Both the position numbers and the translations under genes were made by a program. Below, in pieces: positions 935-1,690 of a stretch of DNA of 8,854 nucleotides (positions within the stretch are counted from its first letter, which is position 1; every line of letters starts with the position of its first letter). The notes under the pieces were generated by a model, which was given only the letters and a program-made list of their open reading frames with translations, ran no database searches and had not been told where the DNA came from. The DNA is taken from IMG/VR virus record IMGVR_UViG_2778261069_000005, positions 1 to 8,854 of that record, one strand, 5' to 3'. Origin of the DNA: a virus. Lineage: Duplodnaviria; Heunggongvirae; Uroviricota; Caudoviricetes.

Positions 935-1639
935 ATGGAAAACAAAGATATTCGCAAATCGAATCTGGCGTTTTTGCTAGATGAGCATAAAAAAATCGCG
1001 GGTAACACTAATGCAAGCTTTGCCGATAAGCTTGGAGTTAGCCCTTCTCAACTCACGCAAGTCTCCGGTGAAAAAAGCACTCGAAACATAGGGGATAAAC
1101 TAGCAAGAAAATTCGAAGCCGCACTTGGGTTACCTAATGGGTGGCTTGATTTGGTACATGATGTAACACCAATTGCATCATGCTCAGATTCTTTAACTTT
1201 TGTCGGTCAGGTAAGAAAAGGGTTAGTGCGCGTGGTTGGTGAGGCAATTCTTGGTGTTGATGGTGCCATCGAGATGACCGAAGAGCGCGATGGGTGGCTC
1301 AATATTTATAGCGATGATCCAGATGCCTTTGGTCTTCGTGTGAAAGGAGACAGCATGTGGCCCAGAATAAAATCAGGAGAATATGTACTCATTGAGCCTA
1401 ACACCAAAGTATTCCCGGGGGATGAGGTGTTTGTCAGAACTGTTGAAGGACACAACATGATCAAAGTTCTTGGCTATGACAGAGATGGAGAATACCAATT
1501 TACAAGCATCAACCAGGACCACAGGCCAATAACGTTGCCTTATCATCAAGTAGCAAAGGTGGAGTATGTGGCTGGTATTCTGAAGCAATCTCGCCATCTG
1601 GATGACATCGAGGCAAGGGAGTGGCTGAAAAGTTCGTGA
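935..1639 (+). CDS. cI: CI-family prophage repressor (N-terminal HTH, C-terminal S24/LexA-like autopeptidase domain)
   Basis: 234 aa. Shine-Dalgarno GGGAG 8 nt upstream. C-terminal domain has the GDSMWP serine motif and a downstream lysine (MIKVL), typical of the LexA/CI Ser-Lys dyad. Divergent from the cro-like gene across the operator region. Confidence 0.9.
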   Translation: MENKDIRKSNLAFLLDEHKKIAGNTNASFADKLGVSPSQLTQVSGEKSTRNIGDKLARKFEAALGLPNGWLDLVHDVTPIASCSDSLTFVGQVRKGLVRVVGEAILGVDGAIEMTEERDGWLNIYSDDPDAFGLRVKGDSMWPRIKSGEYVLIEPNTKVFPGDEVFVRTVEGHNMIKVLGYDRDGEYQFTSINQDHRPITLPYHQVAKVEYVAGILKQSRHLDDIEAREWLKSS

Positions 1640-1690
1640 CTTCATCGTCACATAGCTGGTAACCAGTGGCCTGAAGAGACGTTTGGGTGA
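1640..1690 (+). other. In-frame remnant of a lambda-type cI 3-prime end (encodes ...QWPEETFG then stop) directly after the cI stop codon
   Basis: Codons 1664-1690 read QWPEETFG-stop, matching the C-terminus of lambda CI as I recall it, and are in the same frame as the upstream cI ORF, which stops at 1637-1639. Confidence 0.4.

What the first reader, a model, noticed from the sequence alone, without database searches (positions are those of the whole stretch)
1637..1690. cI stop codon followed in frame by a lambda-like cI C-terminal tail
After the cI stop (TGA at 1637-1639) the same frame continues LHRHIAGNQWPEETFG then stop, and the last 8 residues match the lambda CI C-terminus as I recall it. 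This marks a mosaic recombination joint at the 3-prime end of cI, or a stop codon that arose inside an ancestral longer repressor. Read-through or reversion would add a 17-residue tail to the repressor.
Basis: partly seen in the sequence, partly recalled or inferred. Interest (0 to 1): 0.4.

Follow-up and report, generated by a model that had tools for sequence, protein, structure and literature searches.

The report
Leftover repressor gene ends reused as crossover site
The 51 bases after this prophage's repressor gene are untranslated leftovers of the 3' ends of two other repressor genes that were displaced in the past. The lambda-like leftover still serves as a short shared patch where related phages cross over and swap the accessory genes next to the repressor.

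Summary
After the cI stop (TGA 1637-1639) the frame reads LHRHIAGNQWPEETFG, then TGA (1688-1690). Bases 1664-1686 match the lambda cI 3' end at 23 of 23 positions.

It is not a truncated longer repressor. All 95 surveyed loci carrying this cI 3' end keep the TGA. All 120 protein homologues end at about the same place, and none contains WPEETFG.

The tail is composite. Bases 1651-1663 (probably from 1642) are the last codons and TAA stop of a third repressor type (...FWSSHSW*), read in another frame. Bases 1664-1690 are the last 8 codons and stop of a lambda/434-type cI.

The same 27-nt piece ("Q") lies outside any ORF behind at least 8 other repressor types, in all three frames. These include phi80, HK225, 933W and H-19B.

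Sequence right after the Q stop is hypervariable: 58 cargo types in 200 loci, 16 of them shared between repressor classes. Variants at the 3' end of Q travel with the cargo and variants at its 5' end travel with the repressor, so crossovers fall inside Q.

No evidence supports read-through, an RNA element or a terminator. This is a clear example of a known kind of feature, a phage mosaic boundary sequence. Moderate interest.

The parts
935..1639 (+). cI repressor gene, 234 aa. It has the H-19B/BP-4795-type N-terminal domain and the C-terminal domain shared with 933W, called 'S-type' here. The native stop is TGA at 1637-1639.
   Evidence: ORF list. Peptidase_S24 match, E = 3.8e-16. 99.3% identity to the annotated cI of H-19B, BP-4795 and ST2-8624. 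Annotated as a LexA family regulator in E. coli RM8385. Homologues end at the same place.
1640..1650 (+). Short joint region of uncertain origin between the cI stop and the first clear vestige. Bases 1642-1647 (TCATCG) probably already belong to the W-type remnant, with a 3-nt indel at 1648-1650.
   Evidence: Alignment with the L010-type repressor gene end. The pattern TCATCGNNNCATAGCTGGTAACCAGTGGCC matches 1642-1671 and is not expected by chance.
1651..1663 (+). Vestige 1: the last three codons and stop (CAT AGC TGG TAA = H S W *, with TAA at 1660-1662) of a different repressor gene type ('W-type', ...RIIGRVFWSSHSW*). It lies out of frame with the window's cI.
   Evidence: 13 of 13 bases identical and contiguous with the end of the 235-aa W-type repressor gene in L010 and L030. 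The same remnant sits in lambda's cI-rexA spacer.
1664..1690 (+). Vestige 2 ('Q'): the last 8 codons (QWPEETFG) and stop of a lambda/434-type cI gene. It is not part of any ORF here, and it is the homology patch in which immunity and cargo exchanges occur.
   Evidence: Searches show the identity to lambda. Searches show it as a true C-terminus in lambda- and 434-type cI and as a vestige elsewhere. Searches show reassortment across it and haplotype evidence for crossovers inside it.
1691..1694 (.). Present-day mosaic breakpoints. Identity to the 933W-type arrangement ends at 1690/1691 and identity to H-19B ends at 1693/1694.
   Evidence: Sequence comparison. The megablast match to H-19B-type phages ends at query position 294, which is window 1693. 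Nucleotide diversity rises from 0.06 to 0.56 at this point.
1691..2433 (+). Cargo cassette in the position that rexAB occupies in lambda. It has an AT-rich leader (about 30% GC at 1700-1899), a promoter-like site at 1877-1905, and two ORFs of unknown function at 1908-2270 (120 aa) and 2286-2414 (42 aa).
   Evidence: No near match in the phage collection for 1691-2433; matches resume at about 2434. PHROG families of unknown function and no Pfam or PADLOC match. Composition. Promoter scan. The same cargo follows a W-type repressor plus Q in L030.
4947..6409 (+). Context only: the phage's own Red-type recombination genes, bet (RecT family, 4947-5732) and exo (YqaJ, 5729-6409), with gam at 4525-4941. 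This is the kind of system able to use homology as short as Q.
   Evidence: Pfam matches RecT 2.7e-33, YqaJ 6e-30 and Gam 3.3e-64. The minimal efficient pairing segment is 23-27 bp for Red-beta and 31-34 bp for RecA, as stated in PMC3945230.

Best explanation
Window 1640-1690 is non-coding 'gene-end debris'. The immunity module of this prophage lineage was replaced at least twice, and each incoming repressor gene brought its own stop codon and left the last few codons of the gene it displaced. Reading left to right there is the resident S-type cI stop, then a remnant of a W-type repressor's last codons and TAA, then the last 8 codons and stop of a lambda/434-type cI (Q). Q is not translated here. 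Because the same 24-27 nt also form the real 3' end of the common lambda- and 434-type cI genes and sit behind many other repressors, Q gives a patch of near-perfect homology at the left edge of the immunity region. Homologous recombination inside it, probably by phage Red/RecT-type recombinases or RecA, joins any repressor type to any of dozens of accessory 'cargo' cassettes that begin right after the Q stop codon. What is shown directly: the homology, the composite structure, the non-coding status, the reassortment and the haplotype pattern. What is inferred: the order of the historical replacements and which recombination enzymes were involved.
For: (1) Identity with the lambda cI end is 23/23 nt, with no such match in 200 shuffles.
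(2) Bases 1651-1663 equal the end of the W-type repressor gene including its TAA. That gene is itself followed 1 nt later by Q. Lambda carries the reverse order, with a W-type remnant (22/25 nt) 11 nt after its own cI stop.
(3) A motif scan found stacked remnants in several orders: S-Q in 90 loci, R-K-Q in 10, W-Q in 6, Q-W behind functional lambda/434 cI in 9, Q-L-W in 5, S-Q-W in 4, and Q-Q. phi80 has two Q copies and HK225 has one, all outside ORFs.
(4) Q lies 0, 1, 2, 4, 8, 24 and 29-31 nt after the stops of different repressor genes, in all three frames.
(5) It is not coding. In the 95 loci with this cI end, changes in the LHRHIAGN codons are at codon positions 1 and 2, while 30 of 33 variable sites in the adjacent C-terminal domain (CTD) are at position 3. 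Two loci have TGG>TGA inside Q and one has EE>KK. More distant S-type genes are followed by decayed copies reading QWPDEIFG*, QWPEDIFE* and QWPDETFG*.
(6) There are 58 different sequences directly after the Q stop in 200 loci, and 16 of them occur behind more than one repressor class.
(7) The Gly wobble base and the stop-codon type of Q go with the cargo whatever the repressor. The CCN and CAR variants go with the repressor class whatever the cargo. This places crossovers inside the intervening 14 nt.
(8) The length of Q equals the published minimal pairing segment for Red-beta, and the window encodes bet and exo.
Against: The IMG/VR loci are highly redundant, with many near-identical E. coli prophages, so counts of loci are not counts of independent events. 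The anchor-based and protein-based samples correct this only partly. The haplotype argument rests on 3-4 variable positions in a 27-nt segment. The W-type assignment of 1642-1650 needs a 3-nt indel, so the exact joint cannot be fixed to the base. No experiment shows recombination in Q. A 24-27-nt patch is at the lower limit for efficient recombination. The clustering of many independent joints within 0-8 nt of the 5' edge of Q is not fully explained by a neutral scar model.
Confidence: 0.8

Rival explanations
1. A nonsense mutation (TGA at 1637) truncated an ancestral longer repressor that originally ended in ...QWPEETFG. On this view the tail is the now untranslated natural C-terminus of this same gene.
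For: The tail is in frame with cI. BLASTP of the read-through product aligns the tail with lambda's C-terminus after a 22-residue gap.
Against: The TGA is present in all 95 loci with this cI end. All 120 homologues at 47-98% identity end 10-25 residues after YVAGILKxSRH with similar acidic tails (REWLRNN, REWLRNRS, and so on), and none contains WPEETFG. The strand that precedes QWPEETFG in lambda (VVGKVIAS) already has its counterpart upstream, YVAGILKQ. The 24 nt between the stop and Q come from another gene's end in a different frame. Related S-type genes have Q 2 or 7 nt after their stop, which is out of frame.
Confidence: 0.02
2. Leaky or programmed read-through of the UGA produces a minor 251-aa repressor isoform carrying a lambda-like C-terminal tail that has a function, for example in oligomerisation.
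For: The stop is UGA followed by C, which from general knowledge of E. coli termination contexts is a weak context. The tail is in frame and open for 16 codons in most copies. The two differences in the 933W-type copy (CCA, GAA) are synonymous.
Against: Those 'synonymous' variants are the ones that circulate in functional lambda-type genes and track the cargo, so they are explained by recombination. Changes in the first 8 tail codons are non-synonymous: H>Y, H>P, GN>DS. Two loci have a stop inside the tail and one has EE>KK. In other repressor classes Q is out of frame. There is no stimulatory RNA structure, with a fold z-score of +0.71. No such protein appears among the homologues.
Confidence: 0.03
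3. The 27-nt Q sequence is kept because it is itself a functional cis element. Candidates are a binding site, an RNA processing site, a terminator or attenuator for the PRM/PRE transcript, or an expression signal for the downstream cargo.
For: Q is retained intact behind many unrelated repressor genes. Independent joints cluster 0-8 nt from its 5' edge, which a purely neutral scar does not obviously predict.
Against: There is no terminator-like site at 1640-1700. There is no stable or unusual RNA fold and no Rfam match. The distance to the next gene varies from 8 nt in the 933W-type to 217 nt here, and the cargo differs, so Q cannot be a common expression signal. Vestigial copies outside E. 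coli phages have drifted at 3-7 of 24 positions. Within the S-type set Q is no better conserved than the flanking remnant, with diversity of 0.063 against 0.029.
Confidence: 0.07
4. It is a chance resemblance to the lambda CI C-terminus.
For: None beyond the shortness of the match.
Against: The 23-nt match is exact, none of 200 shuffles contained it even with 3 mismatches allowed, and it sits at the homologous map position downstream of a repressor gene in hundreds of loci.
Confidence: 0

Closest known systems
Shared 3' end of the lambda and 434 cI genes (left boundary of the imm434 substitution)
   Same: It is the same DNA. The phage 434 record V00639 is 33/33 identical to the lambda cI end. 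Both lambda-type and 434-type repressors end in QWPEETFG, and homology between heteroimmune phages resumes there.
   Different: In lambda and 434 these codons are translated as the true C-terminus. In the window they lie after the stop of an unrelated-tailed repressor and are not part of any ORF. That this shared end was recognised classically as the imm434 boundary is my recollection, not something checked in a paper here.
Short conserved boundary ('linker') sequences of the modular theory of lambdoid phage evolution (Susskind & Botstein 1978; Clark et al. 2001, as cited in PMC3029335)
   Same: A short conserved sequence sits between interchangeable modules. The flanks reassort across it and crossovers map inside it.
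   Different: PMC3029335 notes that such sequences cannot be found at most mosaic boundaries. This one is unusually clear, and it is not a dedicated linker but the recycled end of a gene.
Gene-end remnants left by illegitimate recombination near gene boundaries (Hendrix/Juhala model). One example is mycobacteriophage Island3 gp68, whose C-terminal 18 residues repeat those of the upstream gene (PMC3029335).
   Same: A few tens of bases of a gene's 3' end are duplicated or left behind at a module joint, and recombination between roughly 50-bp end sequences is implied.
   Different: Here remnants of several different repressor genes are stacked in varying orders, and one of them is shared across many phage lineages.
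Accessory or 'moron' slot downstream of the prophage repressor (rexAB in lambda, hex in 434)
   Same: The cargo beginning at 1691 occupies the rexAB position. Like hex and rexAB it is presumably co-transcribed with, or expressed next to, the repressor (PMC3564112).
   Different: The two ORFs here (1908-2270 and 2286-2414) have no known function and no match in defence-system models.
Relaxed homologous recombination by Rad52-like phage recombinases as the source of mosaicism (PMC2327257, PMC3945230)
   Same: Exchange happens at short or diverged homology. The stated minimal pairing segment for Red-beta, 23-27 bp, equals the length of Q, and the window encodes bet and exo.
   Different: The papers measured recombination on 700-bp to 3-kb homologies. 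Use of a 27-nt patch is inferred here from sequence patterns only.

Membership tests
Homologue of the lambda/434-type cI 3' end (Q) | Nucleotide identity to the last 8 codons and stop of lambda cI well beyond chance | tested here: met
   23/23 consecutive and 26/27 overall. None of 200 shuffles contained it even with 3 mismatches allowed.
Homologue of the lambda/434-type cI 3' end (Q) | Same map position and orientation: immediately downstream of the repressor gene, upstream of the rex-position cargo | tested here: met
   Gene order is cII-cro-cI-tail-cargo-N-cIII-gam-bet-exo, matching the lambda annotation.
Translated C-terminus of the resident repressor (coding sequence) | Lies within the ORF, or relatives lack the intervening stop | tested here: not met
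   The TGA is present in 95/95 loci. None of 120 homologous proteins contains WPEETFG.
Translated C-terminus of the resident repressor (coding sequence) | Substitution pattern of a coding region (third-position bias, no internal stops) | tested here: not met
   Changes in tail codons 1-8 are at positions 1 and 2. TGG>TGA occurs in 2 loci and EE>KK in 1. In the adjacent CTD 30 of 33 variable sites are at position 3.
Programmed stop-codon read-through extension | In-frame relationship conserved wherever the element occurs | tested here: not met
   Q follows other repressor stops at 0, 1, 2, 4, 8, 29 and 31 nt, in all three frames. It follows at 2 and 7 nt behind related S-type genes.
Programmed stop-codon read-through extension | Stimulatory RNA structure or context downstream of the stop | tested here: inconclusive
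   There is no significant structure, z = +0.71. The UGA-C context is known to be leaky (general knowledge), so low basal read-through cannot be excluded. The protein product was not testable here.
Module boundary / linker sequence for homologous exchange | A short sequence conserved between genomes whose flanks on both sides are otherwise unrelated | tested here: met
   At least 8 repressor C-termini lie upstream and 58 cargo starts lie downstream. Diversity jumps from 0.06 to 0.56 at the Q stop.
Module boundary / linker sequence for homologous exchange | Flanks reassort, and crossover points map inside the conserved segment | tested here: met
   16 cargo types occur behind more than one repressor class. 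3' variants of Q are linked to the cargo and 5' variants to the repressor.
Module boundary / linker sequence for homologous exchange | Recombination at the segment demonstrated experimentally | not testable with these tools
   This needs phage crosses with junction sequencing.
Intrinsic terminator or known RNA element | GC-rich hairpin with a T run, or a match to an RNA family | tested here: not met
   No terminator-like site in 1640-1700. No Rfam match there at E <= 1.

The most novel reading that the evidence does not exclude
The 27-nt Q sequence may be more than a passive scar. It could be a maintained, near-universal exchange site that defines the left edge of lambdoid immunity modules. 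It would be kept intact behind unrelated repressor genes by second-order selection for the ability to swap immunity and defence cargo, or because a phage or host recombination function prefers it. Repeated independent joints land within 0-8 nt of its 5' edge, and stacked remnants record a readable history of successive repressor replacements.
Probability: 0.12. Interest if true: 0.7.

Novelty: new member of a known kind. Interest (0 to 1): 0.38.

Why it matters
There are two long-standing views of how temperate phage genomes become mosaics. One is homologous exchange at short conserved linkers. The other is random illegitimate joining followed by selection.

This locus shows both at once. Illegitimate replacements left gene-end remnants, and one remnant then became a working homology patch that couples any repressor type to any of dozens of accessory cassettes at the rex position. 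That slot often carries defence or fitness genes in Shiga-toxin prophages.

The locus gives a concrete, short and experimentally tractable site for measuring how little homology phage recombinases need in nature.

It also warns annotators that an in-frame lambda-like tail after a repressor stop codon is not evidence of a pseudogene or of read-through.

Tried and rejected
- Nonsense-mutation origin: rejected by the anchor survey, the homologue C-termini and the multiple alignment.
- Read-through function: no support from frames, substitution patterns or RNA structure.
- Terminator or RNA element: nothing in the promoter/terminator scan, the RNA fold or Rfam.
- The first pattern scan allowed only synonymous variants, so I did not use it to infer selection. 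I repeated the survey with an anchor inside cI and with protein-identified relatives.
- Literature: a full-text search for 'WPEETFG' found nothing. Searches for remnant, vestige or boundary descriptions of this site found nothing specific. Degnan et al. 2007 is not held in the library. The older lambda, 434 and phi80 sequence papers were not looked up here and may mention the shared end.
- Function of the cargo ORFs: Pfam and PADLOC gave nothing, and PHROGs gave only families of unknown function.
- Antisense ORFs across the tail (1373-1705 and 1509-1712, minus strand): I judged them spurious. They overlap cI antisense, and the comparable antisense ORF in the 933W-type locus L003 starts in unrelated cargo sequence.

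Full report
**Context.** The window is the early-left region of a lambdoid prophage, drawn in the reverse of the usual lambda map.
- cII lies at 150-449 (minus strand) and a cro-position gene at 588-821 (minus strand).
- cI lies at 935-1639 (plus strand), N at 2877-3149 and cIII at 4294-4458.
- gam lies at 4525-4941, bet at 4947-5732 and exo at 5729-6409.
- The cI is the H-19B/BP-4795/ST2-8624 type, at 99.3% identity.
- Window 1400-2400 is 100% identical in 89 complete E. coli genomes, mostly O26, O103 and other STEC.

In the cI frame the sequence reads ...REWLKSS*LHRHIAGNQWPEETFG*. Lambda cI ends ...VIASQWPEETFG, encoded by CAGTGGCCTGAAGAGACGTTTGGCTGA. Window 1664-1690 is identical apart from the Gly wobble base. 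The 23-mer never appeared in 200 shuffles, even with three mismatches allowed.

**The stop at 1637 is native.** I scanned IMG/VR with a 27-nt anchor taken from inside cI, so the result is blind to what follows.
- All 95 loci have TGA at this position and 94 carry the tail. The loci include two different N-terminal domains, 933W-type (52) and H-19B-type (42).
- A protein search returned 120 homologues at 47-98% identity. All end 10-25 residues after the conserved YVAGILKxSRH strand, with endings such as REWLRNN, REWLRNRS and EWLESVKNR. None contains WPEETFG.
- In a multiple alignment of seven lambdoid repressors, the last conserved strand (I-I-G-x-V) aligns with YVAGIL of this protein. That strand sits just before QWPEETFG in lambda. 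This protein then has its own 18-residue tail.
- PMC3430580 independently notes that the 933W and BP-4795 repressors share an identical C-terminal half.

**The tail is made of two different gene ends.** A 235-aa repressor type that I call W-type (L010, L030 and others) ends ...RIIGRVFWSSHSW*, with the DNA ...ttctggtcatcgCATAGCTGGTAAc, and is followed one base later by Q.
- Window 1651-1690 is collinear with this, so CAT AGC TGG TAA at 1651-1662 is the W-type gene's end read in another frame. The similarity probably extends back to 1642 with a 3-nt indel.
- Lambda carries the reverse arrangement. Eleven bases after its own cI stop, the cI-rexA spacer contains TTCTGGTCGGCGCATAGCTGATAAC, which matches the W-type end at 22 of 25 positions and is not expected by chance.

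**Stacked remnants are common.** A motif scan of all loci found remnants stacked in several orders.
- Q occurs behind the S-type stop in 90 loci.
- A 434-type remnant plus Q occurs behind an R-type repressor in 10 loci.
- W-Q occurs in 6 loci, and Q-W behind functional lambda or 434 cI in 9.
- Q followed by a KLRLV-type remnant and then a W remnant occurs in 5 loci.
- S-Q-W occurs in 4 loci, and doubled Q also occurs.
- Classical phages show the same thing. phi80 cI (...RYRR*) is followed after 3 nt by TAGTGGCCTGAAGAGACGTTTGGGTGA, with a second, decayed copy 87 nt further on. HK225 has one copy. All of these lie outside annotated genes.

**Q is not coding when it lies behind other repressors.**
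- Its distance from the preceding stop is 0, 1, 2, 4, 8, 24 or 29-31 nt, covering all three frames.
- Within the 95-locus set, changes in the LHRHIAGN codons fall at codon positions 1 and 2 (H>Y, H>P, GN>DS). In contrast, 30 of 33 variable sites in the adjacent cI domain are third positions.
- Two loci have TGG>TGA inside Q, one has EE>KK with a shifted stop, and one is cut off within the tail.
- S-type genes from Salmonella and other enterobacteria were found through the protein search. They are followed after 2 or 7 nt by drifted copies reading QWPDEIFG*, QWPEDIFE* and QWPDETFG*.
- There is no terminator-like site, no unusual RNA fold (z = +0.71) and no Rfam match at the tail.

**What Q does now.** Sequence immediately after the Q stop codon is hypervariable.
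- Nucleotide diversity rises from 0.02-0.06 to 0.56.
- There are 58 distinct cargo starts in 200 loci.
- Sixteen cargo types occur behind more than one repressor class. Lambda's rexA leader follows lambda-type, 434-type, W-type and S-type repressors. The window's own cargo follows both S-type and W-type.
- The few variable positions inside Q sort cleanly. The Gly wobble base and the stop type (TGA, TAA or TAG) go with the cargo whatever the repressor. The CCT/CCA and CAG/CAA variants go with the repressor class whatever the cargo. Exchanges therefore happened inside the roughly 14 nt between these positions.
- This matches the stated minimal pairing length of 23-27 bp for Red-beta (PMC3945230), and the prophage encodes bet and exo.
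- In the window, the present-day breakpoints are at 1690/1691 against the 933W-type arrangement and 1693/1694 against H-19B. The cargo cassette runs to about 2433, where similarity to sequenced phages resumes.

**Caveats.**
- The loci are redundant, so counts are not independent events.
- The first scan was biased towards intact Q and was capped.
- The crossover inference rests on few sites.
- No experiment was possible.
- The clustering of independent joints close to the 5' edge of Q is not fully explained by a neutral scar. It may reflect deletion of useless DNA down to the useful patch, ascertainment, or some preference I could not test.
- I found no paper in the searchable library describing this vestige. 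Older subscription literature on lambda, 434 and phi80 could not be checked.

**Verdict.** The feature is real and well explained. It is a non-coding stack of displaced repressor gene ends, and its lambda-like part acts as a short homologous boundary for module exchange. It is a particularly clear instance of a known phenomenon rather than a new kind of element.

Noticed in passing
L001 2192-2216 minus strand (lambda 37191-37215, the cI-rexA spacer): Phage lambda itself carries a remnant of the W-type repressor gene end 11 nt after its own cI stop. The sequence is TTCTGGTCGGCGCATAGCTGATAAC; with the 12 nt upstream it would read IGKVFWSAHS**. Lambda's immunity region therefore also appears to have displaced an earlier repressor.
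   Followed up: partly
window 1691-2433 (ORFs 1908-2270 and 2286-2414): A two-ORF cassette of unknown function sits in the rexAB position, with an AT-rich leader and a promoter-like site at 1877-1905. It matches only PHROG families of unknown function, has no Pfam or PADLOC match, and has no near match in the 50,697-record phage collection. It is present in 89 complete E. coli genomes. It is a candidate lysogen-expressed accessory or defence module.
   Followed up: partly
window 4-127 and 8731-8854: A perfect 124-nt inverted repeat lies at the two ends of the window. The right-hand arm matches thousands of places in E. coli genomes (median 3, up to 51 per genome) annotated as IS3-family transposase. 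The 8.6-kb prophage segment is therefore bracketed by inverted IS copies, consistent with a degraded prophage or a contig that ends in IS repeats.
   Followed up: partly
L205 900-926 and 987-1013 (phage phi80): phi80 has two copies of the Q remnant downstream of its cI, the second one decayed (TGGTGGCCTGATGAGACGTTTTGGTGA), separated by 60 nt (the two copies begin 87 nt apart). The same doubled arrangement occurs in IMG/VR locus L052.
   Followed up: partly
L002 about 3376 onward (H-19B) and L003 2561-3907 (933W-type Stx2a phage): Different cargo lies behind the same cI tail. In H-19B the next ORF begins MKVLNVEKLHSFSRKHNQAKGALDSWYDEV, which looks like a HigB-type toxin from memory (not tested). 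In the 933W-type phage there is a 113-aa ORF and then a 285-aa ORF starting 8 nt after the Q stop.
   Followed up: no
L031, L058, L073, L077, L084 (repressors ending ...IIGVxxExKxRxV*): In these repressors, whose ends look P22 c2-like from memory (not tested), the stop and the few bases before Q resemble the 434-type ...GTGGTTAAGGCTCAG with a 1-nt indel (for example GCTGGTTTAAGGCCCAG). For this family, an origin of the stop by frameshift within a Q-ending ancestor cannot be excluded.
   Followed up: no
window 2367-2461: There is a weak sub-threshold Rfam match to the sroD sRNA (19.8 bits against a gathering score of 50, E = 0.6) at the left edge of the cargo cassette. It is probably chance.
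   Followed up: no
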